DNA from: Eledone cirrhosa
Lineage: Eukaryota
Length of the DNA: 64,000 nt
NCBI GenBank assembly: GCA_964016885.1
Contig: OZ024740.1
Coordinates: forward strand, 168,268,001 to 168,332,000
Reading direction: 5' to 3'
Positions 6,945-62,846 of the stretch are shown in pieces. Position 1 is the first letter of the stretch. Each line of letters begins with the position of its first letter. The notes beneath the pieces were generated by a model that saw only the letters and a list, made by a program, of their open reading frames with translations, did no database searches and was not told the origin of the DNA. Both the position numbers and the translations under genes were made by a program.

Positions 6945-7016
6945 GGTCTCATGGTGTAATGGTTAGCACTCTGGACTTTGAATCCAGCGATCCGAGTTCA
7001 AATCTCGGTGAGACCT
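6945..7016 (+). tRNA. tRNA-Gln (anticodon TTG)
   Basis: 72-nt cloverleaf GGTCTCA..TGAGACCT with A and B boxes, anticodon arm CTGGA-CT-TTG-AA-TCCAG, and an oligo-T terminator at about 7026-7032. Confidence 0.95.
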
Positions 7017-7561: not shown

Positions 7562-7633
7562 GGTCTCATGGTGTAATGGTTAGCACTCTGGACTCTGAAT
7601 CCAGCGATCCGAGTTCAAATCTCGGTGAGACCT
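7562..7633 (+). tRNA. tRNA-Gln (anticodon CTG)
   Basis: Identical to 6945-7016 except that the anticodon is CTG. Confidence 0.93.
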
Positions 7634-9782: not shown

Positions 9783-10070
9783 TACACACACACATATATC
9801 TATATATATATTAGAACTGGAGCTCTGAAATACCAATATATATATGGATGTATATATAATGTATTTTGCAATACACTTTATGCTTAATTAAAAGCATTTT
9901 GAAGACCGTATGCTATTGTTTTAGAGTAGTGACAAATTCACTTACTTTAATCTCAGCAAACCATTTTTAATTTCTGCCTGACCAACAATCGCTCTGTATA
10001 ATCAGTTCCTGATTATTTACTAGAATTCTATAAGAATATAACATCAGTAATCTCAGTAGACAGGAGGGGT

Positions 10071-10119
10071 AGTTAGCCTTGATAAGCTTCAACAAAAGCG
10101 AAACAAGGCCTTGTCGGCT
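10071..10119 (+). ncRNA. Type I hammerhead motif with U3-A8 core variant (family A)
   Basis: AGTTAGCC-TTGATAA-GCTTCAACAAAAGC-GAA-ACAAGGCCTTGT-C-GGCT, with palindromic stem III and a GUC triplet at 10113-10115. Confidence 0.8.
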
Positions 10120-10389
10120 TATCTCCCCTGTTTGCTGAGATCAAAGTAAGTGAATTTGTCACTACTCTAAAAATCAATAGCTTACGGTCTTCAAAATGTT
10201 TTTAATTAAGCATAAAGTGTATTGCAAAATACATTATATATACATCCATATATATATTGCTATTTCAGAGCTCCAATTCTAATTTTTAATTTCTGCCTGA
10301 CCAACAATCGCTCTGTATAATCAGTTCCTGATTATTTACTAGAATTCTATAAGAATATAAGATCAGTAATCTCAGTAGACAGGAGGGGT

Positions 10390-10438
10390 AGTTAGCCTTG
10401 ATAAGCTTCAACAAAAGCGAAACAAGGCCTTGTCGGCT
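10390..10438 (+). ncRNA. Type I hammerhead motif with U3-A8 core variant (family A, unit 2)
   Basis: Identical to 10071-10119, 319 bp downstream. Confidence 0.8.
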
Positions 10439-10560
10439 TATCTCCCCTGTTTTCTGAGATTAAAGTAAGTGAATTTGTCACTACTCTAAAACAATAGCAT
10501 ACGGTCTTCAAAATGCTTTTAATTAAGCATAAAGTGTATTGCAAAACACATTATATATAC

Positions 10561-10595
<35 letters not shown>

Positions 10596-14363: not shown

Positions 14364-15003
14364 TAATATAGATCAGTTTTATAAATAAATATTGACATAC
14401 CCTTAAAAATAGAACTTTTACATATATATATATATATATCCGTATGTGGTTATGTGGTTGACGGTGGAGAGAAAGGAGTACTCAAAACCGAACTAGAGTT
14501 TTATACTCACTACCATCCTCCCTTTATCGCCTCCTTCTTCTTTCACACATCCATATCCCCCCCCCCTCCTCACTGTCACCACCACCCTTCCAATCCTATC
14601 TTAATTAGCCCCTTCTCAATTAAATCTCCCTTCCCCCACCCCAAGTCTTTTTTTTTTATACTTTGCCGTTGCAACGTTAGTTCTTGTCTGATGACGCTGT
14701 GATAAACAGGCGAAACACCTGACCAACAACACTCACTATTTAACCTTAATAAAATGGATATATATTCATATACATATATATATATTGGTAAACGGAATAG
14801 AAAATGCTGACAAATTGTTCACAGTTGAAAAATGGTTTAATTAGGAATAAAAGAGTATTAGTGATTGTATAGGTTAGTATTCAGTTGTGGTTTTAAGTTT
14901 TTAAGTTTTTACCGGTTGCGCATTTCTAAATGCTTTTCAAAAATAATTTTGAGATAGAGTGTCCGTGCTGTTTGCTCTGATCTGATTAGTTTGGGAATTC
15001 TAC

Positions 15004-15231
15004 CTGTTTTTATGTTAAAAAAGTGGCTCCAGCGTTATTTTTGTGTTGCAAAAATGCTTGTGGTCAAAACAATTTTGATTGGTCGGTAGAGGTCATGTGA
15101 ATGTAAAAAGTTGATTTTGCGCCAAGACTGTTTTTATGTTAAAAAAGTGGCTCCAGCAAAAATTCTTGGGCAAAACAATTTTGATTGGTCGGTAGAGGTC
15201 ATGTGGATAAAAAATTGGTTTTGCGCCAAGA
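15004..15231. repeat. Imperfect tandem duplication, period about 124 bp
   Basis: CTGTTTTTATGTTAAAAAAGTGGCTCCAGC and CAAAACAATTTTGATTGGTCGGTAGAGGTCATGTG each occur twice. Confidence 0.8.
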
Positions 15232-34497: not shown

Positions 34498-34638
<141 letters not shown>

Positions 34639-34749
34639 AAAAATAAATACACAGATACATACATATACATGCATATACACACATATATCCCTGAATTTGT
34701 GTGGTGCCAACCTTAACCGTTGTTGCTCTATGATTAATAGGGACAAAAT

Positions 34750-34932
34750 AATTGTTTCTGCTTTAGGCACAAGGCCAGCAATTACCCAGTGCATTACTGG
34801 TACTTTATTTTATCGACCCCGTAAGGATGAAAGGCAAAGTCAACCTCGGCGGGATTTGAACTCAGATCGTAAAGGGACGTAACTATGCTGGAAAGCATGG
34901 CGTCCGACCCTCTACCGATACTGCCAATCCAC
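34750..34932 (-). mobile_element. tRNA-derived SINE
   Basis: Reverse complement of the family at 21380. Further copies at about 25710-25860(-), 37290-37476(-), 38880-39140(-), 39247-39435(+), 51275-51465(+), 53120-53350(+) and 56360-56515(-). Confidence 0.9.
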
Positions 34933-34997
34933 AGTCCTAGGGACAAAATAATCTGAATGAATTAGATTGGCCCAATATCAGAGCTATATAATACATT

Positions 34998-35622
34998 ATA
35001 AAGAAAGAAGAAACATTAGACATAAATAAAAATATATACTGTATATACCCAATATTCTTCGACATCCTCGACTGCGCAGTTTCGTGGCTACTATGCAAAA
35101 ATATTACATAATAGAAATGCAGTATTTTTGTGTGGTTTGCCAACTTATCAAGAGAATACCTCATTTAAATTTCAAAACACGTCCGCAAGGCGTGAGAGAG
35201 AATCACGGAAAGGTGGAGGGGGAACTTATCACGTGATACAGCGGTCAAGGAACAGAGTTAAGCCTCTTGCAACCAAGAGAAAAAATACCACAAATGGCGG
35301 AGGGGGTATTAATATCTAGGCCACAGACGAGGTGGCTAAGGAGGGCTAGAAGTGTAAATAGTGTAAGCTTGACATCAGTCACTATACTTCTGTGGTTACT
35401 CTACCGTAGGGAGTTATAGACAATAAAAAGAAATACACAGATACATGCGAATATATACATAAATGAGGTATTCTCTTGATAAGTTGGCAAACCTCACAAA
35501 AATACTGCATCTCTATGATGTAATGTTTTTATATAGTAGCCACGAAACTGCGCAGTCGAGGATGTCGTAGAATATTGGGTATATATATTTTTTCTTTATG
35601 TCTAATGTTTCTTCTTTCTTTA
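34998..35622. mobile_element. Short non-coding element with inverted arms of about 165 bp (34998-35166 and 35461-35622), each carrying a U3-A8 hammerhead
   Basis: The arms are diverged reverse complements, with HHRs at 35064-35157 (-) and 35470-35563 (+). Confidence 0.8.
35470..35563 (+). ncRNA. Type I hammerhead motif, U3-A8 core, long stem II
   Basis: ATTCTC-TTGATAA-GTTGGC[..AAAAATACTGCATC tctat GATGTAATGTTTTT..]GCCAC-GAA-ACTGCGCAGT-C-GAGGAT. Confidence 0.78.
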
Positions 35623-35732
35623 TATATATATATATATATATACATACATAAACACATGCATACATGCAGATATAAATACATACATACATACACACACACA
35701 CATATGCATAGACACACTCACACACATACACG

Positions 35733-35798
<66 letters not shown>

Positions 35799-36008
35799 CA
35801 TAAACTCTTTTATATATACATACATACATGCATACATACACACATACATACATGCATAGATACATACACACATACATACATACACACATACATATATACA
35901 TGCATACGTACACACATACACACATACATACATACATACATACATACATACATACATACATACATACATACATACATACATACATACATACATACATACA
36001 TACATACA

Positions 36009-36624
36009 TGGCGGCTGCCAACTCGTTTTCGAGTACGGCCACTACTTTATATCCATGTAGGAGAACCCCTACCGATGCGCTGAACAAGTGTGACTTTTTA
36101 GTCCAGCCAGCGACTTGACAACTCTGGTACAAACACTACACTTGTGACAATTATTGACACATAGTGCTGGGCCCATGGTACCATGTGATGACAAGTGCAG
36201 AGGGATCTCCAGATACAAAGCAATGCCTGTGCCGTGAAGCTTTTATAGTGAGCAAAGGCACTGCACAAAGCCAGTCCCACTCTCTTAACCAAGATGATAT
36301 TTACCGAAAAGAAGAACAAGTCAACATCATTGGATACCATCAGGGTTGCAGGTGTTATATCAGAGTTTTCCTTCTCCTAGAATTCTGCCTTGACAAAGGC
36401 TAAGGGGTCATCTCTCCCGGTGATTTTGGATGGCCATTGACTTAAGAGCTCCTTTGCCCTTTGACAGGTTTTGTTTTTAGTCCTGCAGGATGTCCAAAGT
36501 CACCCTCCTCACCAAGAAACCTTGGTGAGGTTACCACTTTAGTCGCCATGAGACAGGTTGTACTGGGATACATGTTACCAGTAGCACCAACATACATACA
36601 TACATACATACATACATACATACA

Positions 36625-36655
<31 letters not shown>

Positions 36656-37212
36656 GGTGGCTGCCAACTCGTTTTCGAGTACGGCCACTACTTTATATCC
36701 ATGTAGGAGAACCCCTACCGATGCGCTGAACGAGTGTGACTTTGTAGTCCAGCCAGCGACTTGAAAACTCTCGTATAAACACTACACTTGTGACAATTAT
36801 TGACACATAGTGCTGGGACCATGGTACCATGTGACGACAAGTGCAGAGATCTCCAGATATAAAGCAATGCCTGTGCCGTGAAGCTTTTATAGTGAGCAAA
36901 GGCACTGCACAAAGCCAGTCCCACTCTCTTAACCAAGATGATATTTACCAAAAAGAAGAACAAGTCAACATCATTGGATACCATCAGGGTTGCAGGTGCT
37001 ATATCAGAGTTTTTCTTCTCCTAGAATTCTGCCTTGACAAGGGCTAAGGGGTCATCTCTCCCGGTGATTTTGGATGGCCATTGACTCTTAAGAGCTCCTT
37101 TGCCCTTTGGCAGGTTTTGTTTTTAGTCCTGCAGGATGTCCAAAGCCACCCTCCTCACCAAGAAACCTTGGTGGGGTTGCCAGTTTAGTCGCCAACGACC
37201 CGACCATGAGAC
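36009..37212 (-). repeat. Tandem dimer of a non-coding unit of about 560-580 bp separated and flanked by (TACA)n; RTE 5'-UTR-like
   Basis: 36009-36590 and 36655-37212 are highly similar direct copies. The minus strand has GGAGAAGGAAAACTCTGA, a motif I recall from RTE 5' UTRs. Confidence 0.75.
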
Positions 37213-44295: not shown

Positions 44296-45116
44296 GGGAG
44301 AGAAGATGTTAAGATATGTATTTCATTTCTTTGTTTTTGTTGTTGTTTATCCATCGTGCCTCTTTCACTACACTTATAGACCTAAAATTGAGCAATTACT
44401 GATGGATATAAGGAAGAATGATGTTGGATAGGAAAGAATTATGAGAAAGTCTTTTGGTTTTGTTTTTCTTTTCCTTATATATTATTTAATCGTTTAATGT
44501 GAAAACCCGAGTCGACAGCTGTGGGGGCTTAAAATCTGTCGTCAGAGAATCGGACGCTTCAAAAAGGATATACACACACAGACACACATACATACGTATA
44601 TATATAATATATATATCTATATATATATATATATAATACATACATATATATACATACATAGTTAACTGTCAACATTCTGACTATCAGCAACTTTGTTATC
44701 GCCACCGCTTCCACCACCACCACCACCATCGTCCCTGGCACCGTTGCTACCAACACCAACACCAACATTACTATTACACAAGTACGACCGACACCAATAC
44801 TGCCGCCGCCAACATTATCACCACCACCACTATCATCACTATCATTACCGTTTACTCCCCACCCCACCACCACTAATATTGCTATAACTATCACACTACT
44901 TACATCATTTCCACTGCTACTAGCATCACACACTTCTACAACAGCATCCCTTCCACCGCCACCTTCATTGCTATTACAATTACTAACATCATTACTACCA
45001 CCACCACCAACACTACTACTATCCTCTTCACTGACAAGGCTCCACCCCCATAACCAACTCCAACACTAACACCACGATTGTCATATGCTTCTATTTATAT
45101 GAACACTGCCGTTGCC

Positions 45117-48100
45117 ATGATGACTTCAGCTAGCACCTCTGTTACCATTCCGGTTAGGTTGTTCGCTGTGATCACAGTTGTCGTGATACAGTTTCTCGCC
45201 ACAGCGAAGATAACATCGGCTCACGATTTAAATGAAGAAGTTATACAGCCGTCATTAACTGCAACAACACCTTTTCATTCAGTTAACAATGAGACAGAGG
45301 AGAAAGCATCGATCCAGTTGGCAGTATTGCCACAGCAAGAATTCTCCACACTGGGTGTTACCGACCCACCAGAAGACACACTGGTCACAATTTTGGATGG
45401 ATCCAGTCCAACGACACCGTTTCAAGAGATACATACTGTGTCTCCCAGGAATCAACATGCAGATATTAATGCTAACGGCAATGATGAGAAGAAAGACATT
45501 GATAAACAAGCCCAGGTTGGAGATATTACCCACAAAAGAACTGTCATTGACAAAAGTGACCACAAGATCGTTATACCAGCTGATCGAATAGATGACTTAA
45601 TACATGAAGATGCTGTAAGAAATGATGCTATTATTCGAGGATCTTTTGTTGGTGACGATTCTGAAGTTCGTGATAATGATGATGGTGACGGTCATCGTAT
45701 GAAAGGAAGGCCTTCGGGGAGTAGCGAGCAAAAAGAACAAGAACCGATAATTTTCAAAAGTGATTTGGATTTCTTACAACAGCAATTAAAATACCAAAAC
45801 CAAGAACTCGCCGATCTCCGAGTGCGTCTTTCAAAAAGTGACATCGCTTTGATTGATATAGAAACGAAATTTTACAAATATTTACAAACCGAAAGTTTGT
45901 TGTCAGATGGCACGGAACACAAACGCAATATATTATCACAACAATTTCCCGACCAAGATACTAAACTTAAACAAATACCAGGATTATTCAACTGTCGAAA
46001 TAGTTTTCCAAAGGAATCTGATTTTTTGAAACTGGAACAGGACTTTACTATTTTCCGAAATCAAGTGGAAGATAACTTGGGTTTAATATTAAAAGAACTG
46101 GATTACCTTCGATCTTGGCGTCAAGATTATTTGAAACAAACAACTGAAATCACTTCAACTGAAAATATTCAAGATACTTTCCATTTAGTCCCTATGTCTA
46201 GCAAACAAAGTGAATGGGATAAAACCAAATCAATTAAGGACAACAGTTCTATTGATGAGGTTCAACAATCTACAACCAAAGTTCTTGATGACGTAAATTT
46301 GGAAAATGATTCAGTAACGAAAGAAATACCTATGATACACCAAAAATATGGTTTCTCAAACACATCACAAACTGACAATATTCTCGAGCCTACGGACATC
46401 TCTAATATCACTGTAGGCAATAAAATTGAAGAACTAGAGTATTTCAAAACGTTATTGCAGGAAATACATCAAAAAGTAGAGGATGCACACACTCGTGTTG
46501 ATAATTTGGAAGGAAATGTGATGCTCTCTATGGAAAATGTTTCACAAATCCTTAGCTTATCACAAGAAATTCAAAATATTACATTCCTCCAATCCCAGAT
46601 TAACCAAATTATTACTCGACTTGATTCAAAACAAAATAAATCTGAAATTGATACTTACTATGGAGATTTTAAACCAAATCTGACTAGATTTATTAATGAT
46701 ACCTATCAGGAATTGAAGACATTAAGCACTGTCGATGGAAGTTACAATGATACAGCAGATAAATATAATGTTTTACCAATAGAAAACAGTTCCAAAATCA
46801 GTGAAAATATTAGGCGTTCCTTCAACTATTCAATTAACGAAAGCTGGAATTTGACCGACTTTTCTCAAACTGATAAAAAAGAAGCATATAGCGATTTTTC
46901 TTCTGAATTAATTACTGTTAAACAAAACTTTACTCAACTTTTTCATGTAGTTGAAAATATTGATTCGAACTATGCTGATCTTTCTCAACGTCTAGGTCTT
47001 TTTTCTCACCAGTTGTCTTCAATTATGACACGGTTAAATCAAGACACAGATCAGCAGAATGGATCAGGGAAAAGTAAAAGTGTTTCCAGTCATTTAGACG
47101 TTTTAAACGAAGATTATGTGAAGGATAAAGATAGCATGACTTCTAAGCCAAATATTGGGTTGAAATCGAATGAAAGCTTTTTCCAAAATACAAAACATTC
47201 AAAATCAATATTTGTTCCCACCATGTCTACAACTTCTCAAAATAAAACTGAAGAGAAACTCTCTGAATGGATATCAAAAACATTCTTTAAAAATTTAACA
47301 TCAGATGAATTTCTAATGCGCTCGGATATTTCGAGTGGAAGTATGACAAGGGAAAAGGTTTTATGTTATAATTTCTCCGGTGTAAATGAATCAAATTCTG
47401 AAGTATCAATATTGAAAAGCTTTTTGGAGCATTTAGGATCAATGTTGATGGAAGTTAAAAATCATTTAACTATGTGCTCTGAAATGAACCGAACTTCAAA
47501 TACGTCTGAGAATGAGACGATCACAAATTATTCCAGTTTTGAGAATGGATCATTATATGGTAATATTTCAGAGAATTTCTCTATGTCTGGAAATATTACT
47601 TTTCCGCGACAGTCTTTTGATACTTTTGAAAACACTACAGATTTAACGTCTATCGAAAGTACAACCACAGGAATAAAAAACAATATAAGTCATTCTCGTT
47701 CTCGCTTTGATGAAATAAAAAGAAAAGAAAACGAAACAATGCTCGAATTGGATCAAAATATATTTTCTTTCGGTGATATAGAAAACAATGAAACTTTAAC
47801 TGGATATAATATTTCTGGTTTACCTCAATCAAGGCACTTGGAACTTATCTACTTCAAAATTGAAACTCTTAGCTTAAGGATTGATGCTCTTGAAAATCAA
47901 ATTCTTACATCGAACAAAGATCCTTTCAAAGAACCGGATGTAAACGAAACCATTCCTTTTATTGAAAGTGATTACGGAGGTTCTGGGTCTTTGGATTCAG
48001 AGTCCGTTGAAAGCCATGATGTGTTACAAAATTTAGTTTCTAATCTAACTAAAATTCAGAAACGTTTCGAATGTTTAAACTCAGCTGTGCAAGACCAAGA

Positions 48101-48489
48101 AAGGCAAATGTCAAGTGTGAAACTACGAATTTATGAGTTAAACGAAAAGCTTGAGCATAAAACACGGGAGAACTCAAGACGGGTGACCGAAAATATCTTA
48201 CTGGATGTTGAAAGCACAAAAGACGACGTAAGTAAACTTATTAACGAAATGTTTGAAATCTCAAATCAGGTTTCGTCATTTTCGAAACTTAATTTGACTG
48301 ATACACTTAGAAAAGTGAAGTGCCATTTGGAAGAACACCAGAAAGATATCAGAAATCTAAAAGAAGTAATGGAATACCAACACGAAAATAGATCAACAGT
48401 TTATAGGAAACCGCGGCCTGTACAGGAAAAAATATTGTACGTTGACGTCATGGTGCATAAGCGGCAAAAGGATTTGAACAAAACTACTG
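45117..48489 (+). CDS. Very large first coding exon of a secreted or membrane-anchored, coiled-coil, heavily N-glycosylated protein; gene continues after a phase-1 intron
   Basis: 3.4-kb open frame in repeat-free sequence. ATGs at 45099 and 45117 (GCCATGA). Hydrophobic segment VRLFAVITVVVIQFLATA, heptad-like stretches (LQQQLKYQNQELADLRVRL, LSLRIDALENQI) and many N-x-S/T sequons. A consensus donor CTG|GTAAGT at 48489/48490 lies just before the ORF stop. Confidence 0.85.
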
Positions 48490-48886
48490 GTAAGTTCAGT
48501 TGATTTACTTCAGTTGGTTTACTCTAAAATATATTTATTAATTTATATATTTAGTGCCAGTAAAATATTGCGTTCGATTTAATCGACTTTCTCCTCCTCC
48601 AAATTGCTGGCCTTGTGACTAAACTAGAAATCATTAATTTATATATTCATATGTCTTTTTATCTCTATATTTATCAGACCTGTCAACTCTCCCGTTCGAC
48701 GGAGAGGTCTCCCACCCACTTTGGGGTGGGTGAGAGATGTCTTCTCTTGTGAAAATAGGTATAACTTTCATTATGTAAAATCTGTGTTTGCGTATGTGTG
48801 TGTCTGCGAAAGCAATGTTCTACATGTATATATGTGTGTGCGTGGCTGTATGTATGTATTTGTATTTATGTATGTATGTATGTATG

Positions 48887-61576: not shown

Positions 61577-61688
61577 TTAAAACAATGAAATAAAAAATCA
61601 AGTCATTAGAGATATACTTCACTGCTTTATATATATATATATTTCAAGCGTAAAACTTGAACCGTTAAGGTCTCATTCCTGGATATGT

Positions 61689-61736
<48 letters not shown>

Positions 61737-61738
<2 letters not shown>

Positions 61739-62673
61739 ATGTATATATAATGTATTTTGCAATACACTTTATGCTTAATTAAAAGCATTTTGAAGACCGT
61801 AAGCTATTGTTTTTTAGAGTAGTGACAAATTCACTTACTTTGATCTCAGCAAACAGGGGAGATAAGCCTACAAGGCCTTGTTTCGCTTTTGTTGAAGCTT
61901 ATCAAGGCTAACTACTCCCACCTGTCTACCGAGATCACTGATGTTATATTCTTATAGAATTCTAGTAAATAATCAGGAGCTGATTATGCAGAGCGGTTGT
62001 TGGTCAGGCAGAAATTAAAAATTAGAATTGGAGCTCTGAAATAGCAATATATATATGGATGTATATATAATGTATTTTGCAATACACTTTATGCTTAATT
62101 AAAAGCATTTTGAAGACCGTAAGCTATTGCTTTTTAGAGTAGTGACAAATTCACTTACTTTGATCTCAACAAACAGGGGAGATAAGCCGACAAGGCCTTG
62201 TTTCGCTTTTGTTGAAGCTTATCAAGGCTAACTACTCCCACCTGTCTACCGAGATCACTGATGTTATATTCTTATAGAATTCTAGTAAATAATCAGGAGC
62301 TGATTATGCAGAGCGGTTGTTGGTCAGGCAGAAATTAAAAATTAGAATTGGAGCTCTGAAATTTCTGCCTGACCAACAACCGCTCTGCATAATCAGCTCC
62401 TGATTATTTACTAGAATTCTATAAGAATATAACATCAGTGATCTCGGTAGACAGGTGGGAGTAGTTAGCCTTGATAAGCTTCAACAAAAGCGAAACAAGG
62501 CCTTGTCGGCTTATCTCCCCTGTTTGCTGAGATCAAAGTAAGTGAATTTGTCACTACTCTAAAAATCAATAGCTTACGGTCTTCAAAATGCTTTTAATTA
62601 AGCATAAAGTGTATTGCAAAATACATTATATATACATCCATATATATATTGCTATTTCAGAGCTCCAATTCTA
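61737..62673. mobile_element. Retrozyme-like repeat family A, second locus: two tandem units (-) joined to one inverted unit (+)
   Basis: Period 320 (GGATGTATATATAA at 61737 and 62057), inversion junction at about 62360. HHRs at 61865-61913 (-, GUA), 62185-62233 (-, GUC) and 62463-62511 (+, GUC). (TA)n flanks. Confidence 0.88.
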
Positions 62674-62846
62674 ATATATATATATATATATATATAGTAA
62701 TAATAATAAATTTGAAGACTAAAATCCAAAAAGGGCTCGATAAGGATAAATATATATCAAATATATAAGAACCGTAGAGCAAATATTTATTACCGATTCT
62801 TTGCTTAAACTTTAATCTGTTATTTTAATAAATATATATATATATA

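What the first reader, a model, noticed from the sequence alone, without database searches (positions are those of the whole stretch)
34998..35622. Unrelated second family also uses the UUGAUAA (U3-A8) hammerhead core, with a long stem II
Seen: ATTCTC-TTGATAA-GTTGGC..GCCAC-GAA-ACTGCGCAGT-C-GAGGAT in both inverted arms. The arms differ in the distal stem II, but the core, stem I and palindromic stem III are identical. No similarity to family A outside the core. Inference: U3-A8 either arose convergently or marks an old lineage-specific HHR subclass. Its recurrence in two families argues against chance decay of CUGAUGA.
Basis: partly seen in the sequence, partly recalled or inferred. Interest (0 to 1): 0.75.

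Follow-up and report, generated by a model that had tools for sequence, protein, structure and literature searches.

The report
Penelope-mobilised retrozyme with U-A hammerhead
The two inverted arms are copies of a ~590-base repeat family whose hammerhead-ribozyme motif uses an already published U-A core pair; the repeat is likely copied from a self-cut circular RNA by Penelope-type retrotransposon enzymes, and one branch of the family carries the ordinary C-G pair instead.

Summary
The motif is real. Both arms hold a type-I hammerhead motif with a U3-A8 core (35464-35563 +, 35064-35163 -). The element runs 34629-~35625 and is split by a SINE-like insert. It belongs to a non-coding ~589-nt repeat family with 1,258 descriptor matches genome-wide: 1,221 U3-A8, 16 C3-A8, 17 U3-G8, 4 C3-G8; reversed control 6. 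Chance decay is rejected. Sister subfamilies covary in stems I and II and keep a palindromic stem III, so cleavage is likely as a dimer. Insertions carry the Penelope-like (PLE) signature: (TA)n targets, two fixed 3' ends 165 nt apart, and one of each end in 40 of 56 inverted pairs. Arms reach 1.6 units, suggesting a circular template. U3-A8 is published, including ~1,300 schistosome PLE motifs. Here it also marks four zinc-finger PLE families. New details: one sister clade has no U3-A8 (0 of 28; C3-G8 or U3-G8), so the pair flips within one family; a conserved UGAGG/CCUCA pseudoknot is predicted. Cleavage and expression are untested, and no autonomous parent was found. New variant of a known kind.

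The parts
34938..35461 (-). Long arm of the insertion, main part (unit positions ~109-625): 5'-truncated body, hammerhead and start of the 165-nt tail
   Evidence: L001 984-1507 vs the natural copy L029
34629..34752 (-). Rest of the long arm's tail, ending at the second fixed 3' end (unit position 743) and running into (TA)n
34753..34937 (-). Later 185-bp SINE-like insert splitting the tail; 15-bp target duplication at 34738-34752 and 34938-34952 ('SINE' label recalled, not tested)
   Evidence: further copies in the window
35460..35625 (+). Short inverted arm, 5'-truncated just upstream of the ribozyme, ending near the first fixed 3' end (unit position ~578) in (TA)n
35464..35563 (+). Type-I hammerhead motif: UGAGG 35464-68, stem I, U3-A8 core 35476-82, long stem II with CCUCA 35492-96, GAA, palindromic stem III 35547-56, predicted cleavage after C17 at 35557
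35064..35163 (-). Second hammerhead copy, core 35151-35145, C17 at 35070; one private change breaks a pair of the predicted pseudoknot
35168..35459 (-). Non-coding body of the ~589-nt unit (the '292 nt between the arms')
34570..34628 (.). (TA)n target microsatellite at the long-arm end
35622..35645 (.). (TA)n target microsatellite at the short-arm end

Best explanation
The locus is a 5'-truncated, head-to-head double insertion of a non-coding ~589-nt repeat that carries a U3-A8 hammerhead motif and is likely a retrozyme-like parasite of Penelope-like retrotransposons. Shown: the unit, its ~1,250 motif matches, covarying stems, two fixed 3' ends, (TA)n targets and arms longer than one unit. Inferred mechanism: (1) a transcript with two tandem ribozymes pairs the palindromic stems III into a double hammerhead, probably helped by a UGAGG/CCUCA stem I-II pseudoknot; (2) it cuts out a 589-nt monomer, which is ligated into a circle; (3) a PLE RT/GIY-YIG protein supplied in trans, most likely from one of the zinc-finger (Neptune-like) families, nicks both strands of (TA)n; (4) it primes one strand at unit position 578 and the other at 743 (=154 on the circle), reading through the ligated ribozyme, sometimes for more than one turn. 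U3-A8 replaces the C3-G8 Watson-Crick pair in active masters; genomic copies such as these two then mutate neutrally.
For: Period 589. 3' ends: 78 at ~578, 48 at ~743, 36 other, of 162 arms; (TA)n follows 109 of those 126 fixed ends. Head-to-head pairs: 40 of 56 have one end of each kind, 0 have two short ends, 1 has two long ends, 15 have an interrupted or other end. This matches the two RT start sites and tail of PLEs (PMC11167929, main text read) and the inverted, (TA)n-targeted structure (PMC8557442, passages). 26 arms exceed 600 nt, maximum 965, and 9 hold two ribozyme copies; none extends into an ORF and none reaches three units. One unit folded as a circle: z -7.0 and -3.4 for two copies. 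Structure on 24 diverse copies: 89.8% of cells paired, 11 of 30 pairs with double changes, slid controls 32-45%; anchored stem I/IIa counts. Stem III is a palindrome in 115 of 151 copies, with several alternative palindromes (the retrieval regex favoured these). Cofold gives the double hammerhead at -56.7 vs 2 x -22.4 kcal/mol; the monomer hammerhead fold (-17.3) is not the MFE. Core tallies. Zinc-finger PLE families with U3-A8 in their pLTRs, including a 938-aa RT+GIY-YIG frame flanked by two motifs.
Against: No cleavage, expression or circular RNA was observed. No autonomous element with a family-B pLTR was found among 54 endonuclease segments examined or next to any fetched B copy. 5' ends do not pile up at the cleavage site: 2 of 162 within 5 nt, about 3 expected, so in vivo cutting is not visible in the DNA. 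In the anole PLE, hammerhead mutants did not affect insertion in vitro and uncut RNA was the main template (PMC11167929). The pseudoknot has no compensatory change (0 of 5 pairs). The 24 rows were hand-picked and related, so the shuffle control is not a probability. Single ribozyme folds are not better than shuffles (z -0.8 to -1.5).
Confidence: 0.68

Rival explanations
1. Same non-autonomous PLE derivative, but copied from uncut linear read-through transcripts of tandem loci. The hammerhead fold is kept for weak or protein-assisted cutting or as a binding structure, and no circle is needed.
For: No 5'-end pile-up at the cleavage site; 9 arms carry two intact ribozymes. Uncut RNA is the dominant PLE template in vitro (PMC11167929). 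PLE hammerheads are slow in vitro (PMC4209133).
Against: Linear copying can only shorten arms, yet arms of 1.3-1.6 units recur in several subfamilies and no array of three or more units was seen among 162 arms. The catalytic core and the palindrome are kept across subfamilies whose ribozyme regions align at only about 45-85%.
Confidence: 0.2
2. The copies are truncated pLTR fragments of an autonomous PLE not yet found.
For: Most hammerheads of PLEs occur as truncated singles or inverted pairs (PMC4209133). Family C shows short pLTR-only copies here. Only the best 150 of 10,597 GIY-YIG candidates were scored, and about 50 of those loci were fetched.
Against: Every long arm continues upstream into the previous repeat unit, never into coding sequence. 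No PLE-protein match within the unit.
Confidence: 0.08
3. U3-A8 is a decayed, inactive CUGAUGA in a repeat amplified by other means.
For: C-to-T and G-to-A are common changes; a C3-G8 sister clade exists.
Against: 1,221 double variants vs 16 and 17 single ones; covarying stems; U3-A8 reported active in vitro (PMC3088659 passage, citing a paper not held).
Confidence: 0.04

Closest known systems
PLE-associated type-I hammerheads, including the U3-A8 variant of Schistosoma mansoni Cercyon elements (Cervera and de la Pena 2014, PMC4209133)
   Same: Type I, palindromic stem III, enlarged stem II, G10.1-C11.1 in most subfamilies, U3-A8 covariation, pairs on opposite strands 100-700 bp apart.
   Different: Stem II region is ~61 nt with an internal loop (vs 7-8 bp); stem III palindrome is 8-10 nt; no unpaired base between positions 9 and 10.1; predicted stem I-II pseudoknot; sits in a non-coding unit, not next to an ORF.
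Metazoan non-LTR retrozymes (Cervera and de la Pena 2020, PMC7229834; Li et al. 2026, bioRxiv 10.64898/2026.07.22.740005)
   Same: Non-coding, low-GC repeat unit with one type-I hammerhead per unit; strongly self-paired when folded as a circle; co-occurs with autonomous PLEs.
   Different: Unit 589 nt vs 150-450 bp; never more than 1.6 units seen; dispersed inverted pairs with fixed PLE-type ends; U3-A8 core; RNA not shown.
PLE two-site RT initiation and tail (Frangieh et al. 2024, PMC11167929; Craig et al. 2021, PMC8557442)
   Same: Two fixed 3' ends, inverted 5'-truncated partner, AT-rich or (TA)n target.
   Different: Tail is 165 nt (usual 30-40); the two ends pair one-to-one on opposite strands in 40 of 56 cases; element is non-autonomous.
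Pseudoknotted hammerheads and natural core variants (Perreault et al. 2011, PMC3088659)
   Same: U3-A8 covariation seen in nature; stem I-II pseudoknot common (about 40% of their set).
   Different: Here between a stem I 5' extension and a stem II internal loop, in a dimer-type retroelement motif; no covariation evidence.

Membership tests
Type-I hammerhead ribozyme | Core with a 3-8 Watson-Crick pair, GAAA and UH cleavage site | tested here: met
   U3-A8 core, GAA, C17 in both arms; G12-A13-A14 in 142 of 151 and N17 not G in 149 of 151 copies
Type-I hammerhead ribozyme | Stems I and II supported by covariation | tested here: met
   double changes in stems I, IIa, IIb
Type-I hammerhead ribozyme | Self-cleavage | not testable with these tools
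   needs an in vitro assay
Rfam hammerhead families | Match to a covariance model at gathering score | tested here: not met
   no hammerhead family listed
PLE-associated dimeric hammerhead | Palindromic stem III | tested here: met
PLE-associated dimeric hammerhead | Located in the pLTR of an RT + GIY-YIG element | tested here: not met
   no family-B motif contiguous with a PLE ORF in fetched loci; the sample is incomplete
PLE-mobilised insertion | Two fixed 3' ends with tail, variable 5' truncation, inverted partner, AT-rich target | tested here: met
Non-LTR retrozyme | Non-coding tandem unit with one type-I hammerhead per unit | tested here: met
   period 589, 9 arms with two motifs; no PLE-protein match in the unit
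Non-LTR retrozyme | Multimeric arrays and unit of 150-450 bp | tested here: not met
   maximum 965 nt (1.6 units) in 162 arms; unit 589 nt
Non-LTR retrozyme | Expressed as circular RNA | not testable with these tools
Pseudoknotted hammerhead | Stem I-II base pairing supported by compensatory change | tested here: inconclusive
   89% of cells paired, conserved while neighbouring columns vary, 0 of 5 pairs with a double change

The most novel reading that the evidence does not exclude
Family B is a circular-RNA retrozyme whose genomic footprints directly record twin priming by a Neptune-type PLE enzyme at two fixed sites on an RNA circle. Its pseudoknot-braced double hammerhead has swapped the catalytic 3-8 pair between U-A and C-G, through a transposition-competent U.G (or extra-U) state, within a single family: a natural record of compensatory evolution in a ribozyme active site.
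Probability: 0.35. Interest if true: 0.62.

Novelty: new variant of a known kind. Interest (0 to 1): 0.4.

Why it matters
The headline trait (U3-A8) is known, so the finding as written is modest. The family does offer two testable things. First, insertion-level evidence that retrozyme-like RNAs are moved by PLE machinery, a link so far argued, in the papers read here, from co-occurrence and pLTR homology. Second, a natural allelic series at the hammerhead 3-8 pair (U-A, C-G, U.G) on one scaffold, ready for kinetics. It also shows that Rfam models miss more than a thousand such motifs in this genome.

Tried and rejected
Rfam scans: no hammerhead hit. Expression: no RNA holder listed (three runs of unknown kind from one study), which is no evidence either way; no reads were laid. 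Parent search: GIY-YIG scan and flanks of about 200 B loci gave no B motif joined to an ORF; B copies near PLEs in L146/L151 and L152 are separate insertions in (TA)n. Rejected: identical cores between the two arms as a sign of selection. Rejected: a pile-up of 5' ends at the cleavage site. My first descriptor fixed G10.1 and missed most of the C3-G8/U3-G8 clade; one search corrects this. Direction of the 3-8 switch not resolved: no outgroup, and midpoint rooting is unsafe for a ladder-like repeat tree. Automatic labels misfile some rows. In one search the labels for L107, L126, L127, L128, L136, L147 and L163 are spurious regex hits and were not counted. One search had one mis-set bracket; one search is the valid count. 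Direct B-to-family-C junctions (L013, L223; L064 ambiguous) could be template switches or nested insertions and are not used as support. Papers not held: Lunse et al. 2017; Przybilski and Hammann 2007.

Full report
Observation. The sequence shows the described motif twice, in inverted orientation. Stem I, core, GAA, the 10-nt palindromic stem III and C17 are identical between the arms; 6 substitutions fall in distal stem II. Family A in the window (10079, 10398, 61905, 62225, 62471) has the same core, but its 319-nt unit shows no significant similarity to family B. Rfam does not detect either (for the family-B region).

Anatomy. Genome searches and mapping onto one natural 743-nt copy show a non-coding unit of period 589 nt. 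In the window, the minus-strand arm runs 35461-34938, is interrupted by a 185-bp insert with a 15-bp target duplication, and ends at 34629 in (TA)n. The plus arm runs 35460 to about 35625. Across 162 distinct arms, 78 end at unit position ~578, 48 at ~743 and 36 elsewhere, while 5' ends are scattered. Of 56 head-to-head pairs, 40 combine one short and one long end, none has two short ends, one has two long ends, and 15 have an interrupted or other end (one duplicated locus counts twice). This is the PLE pattern of two RT start sites and a tail (PMC11167929, parts 1-2 of 4 read; PMC8557442, passages), with a 165-nt tail instead of 30-40. Families A and C show the same two-end pattern, with tails of about 32 and 66 nt, read from the alignments.

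With a descriptor fixing G10.1 and the stem II motif, the genome holds 1,167 U3-A8, 14 C3-A8, 5 U3-G8 and 1 C3-G8 matches. The complementary descriptor (other letters at 10.1) adds 71 matches, counted by eye from the listing as 54, 2, 12 and 3. Totals are 1,221, 16, 17 and 4; reversed-pattern controls give 6. These copies are not independent events. The stronger evidence is that diverged subfamilies keep the core. Among 24 hand-picked diverse copies, 89.8% of cells pair and 11 of 30 pairs show double changes, against 32-45% for slid controls (anchored counts). Stem III changes sequence and length yet stays palindromic in 115 of 151 copies (retrieval favoured such stems). Individual copies mutate evenly across core and non-core, so selection acted on active masters, not on these two arms.

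The 3-8 pair flips inside the family. A DNA search from one outlier retrieved a sister group. Of 38 aligned copies, 18 read U3-G8, 12 C3-G8, 4 U3-A8, 2 C3-A8 and 2 other. In a tree of 108 of 180 copies, with positions 3, 7 and 8 masked, 28 rows form one branch (SH-aLRT 96) with 12 C3-G8, 13 U3-G8, 1 A-G, 2 C3-A8 and no U3-A8 (quick method). The U3-G8 group can equally be read as C3-G8 with one extra U and an intact 5-bp stem I; the sequence does not decide between these. There is no outgroup, so the direction is unknown.

Context of U3-A8. Four PLE families, all with short ACCGGU stem III motifs downstream of the endonuclease, use U3-A8. One has a 938-aa RT + GIY-YIG frame with a CxxxxCxxC linker, flanked by two such motifs; this linker marks Neptune/Nematis PLEs according to PMC8557442. 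Canonical C3-G8 short motifs also occur in fetched loci and at window 40654. U3-A8 was reported as a natural covariation active in vitro (PMC3088659, passages) and in ~1,300 schistosome PLE motifs (PMC4209133, parts 1-2 of 4). So it is a recurring allowed variant, common in this genome's zinc-finger PLEs and their parasites, not a new subclass.

Mechanism. Shown: unit, ends, targets, covariation. Inferred: dimeric cleavage, because cofolding gives a double hammerhead 11.9 kcal/mol below two monomers and the monomer hammerhead is not the MFE. A UGAGG/CCUCA pseudoknot is predicted from conservation only. A circular template is inferred because 26 arms exceed 600 nt, 9 contain two ribozyme copies, none of 162 reaches three units or enters an ORF, and single units fold strongly as circles (z -7.0, -3.4), as described for metazoan retrozymes (PMC7229834, parts 2-3 of 6). 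Against: no 5'-end pile-up at the cut site (2 of 162 within 5 nt), no parent found, and the anole PLE uses uncut RNA in vitro (PMC11167929). Expression could not be examined.

Literature limits. Six searches listed no paper describing this family or a within-family 3-8 switch; the library lacks most subscription journals. Lunse et al. 2017 and Przybilski and Hammann 2007 were seen only as reference entries. Li et al. 2026 (part 1 of 5 and passages) already argues that animal retrozymes derive from PLEs. PMC6765202 and PMC3884650 were seen as passages. No supplements were read; those of PMC4209133 and PMC7229834 list further motifs and may bear on novelty. That the host is a cephalopod, and that the insert is a tRNA-derived SINE, are recalled impressions from no call.

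Verdict. Real feature, new variant of a known kind, interest 0.40.

Noticed in passing
window 9810-10575 and 61680-62675: Family A: 319-nt unit in partial tandems with an inverted partner, U3-A8 core, 12-nt palindromic stem III, two fixed ends about 32 nt apart in (TA)n; a single unit folds as a circle at z -4.7. Same kind of element as family B.
   Followed up: partly
L153:2780-8001 (G000 C1:145.87 Mb): Near-full-length zinc-finger PLE (family C), 938-aa RT+GIY-YIG frame flanked by two U3-A8 short hammerheads; candidate source of enzyme in trans.
   Followed up: partly
L068:1778-2146, L249:927-1290, L036:1099-1318 and others: Short family-C copies with a nearly fixed 5' end about 40 nt upstream of the ribozyme core, suggesting a pLTR transcription start and a SINE-like derivative.
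   Followed up: partly
L013:1091-1380; L223:1152-1460; L064:1154-1676: Family-C fragments joined directly, or across a few TA, to family-B arms; either template switches by the family-C enzyme or nested insertions.
   Followed up: partly
L131, L164, L167 (about 1 kb downstream of the endonuclease); related match at window 14908-15029 (-): PLE family whose U3-A8 motif reads G-C-A in place of the conserved G12-A13-A14 in all 6 copies listed: a second core deviation fixed in a family.
   Followed up: no
L156, L157, L159, L165, L169, L150 downstream of the ORF: Zinc-finger PLE family with no standard hammerhead found by the descriptors; a C-U-G-A-A-G-A ... G-A-A-A stretch lies about 390 nt after the stop and may be a variant.
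   Followed up: no
window 40654 (+): Canonical C3-G8 short hammerhead-like motif with palindromic stem III; stem I weak.
   Followed up: no
window 6945-7016 and 7562-7633 (+): Two tRNA genes (Rfam RF00005) with TTG and CTG anticodons.
   Followed up: no
window 45054-48503 (+): 1149-codon stop-free frame with no Pfam match; not examined for low complexity.
   Followed up: partly
window 36008-36548 and 36654-37194: Direct repeat of about 645-nt period, 95-98% identical, just right of the element.
   Followed up: no
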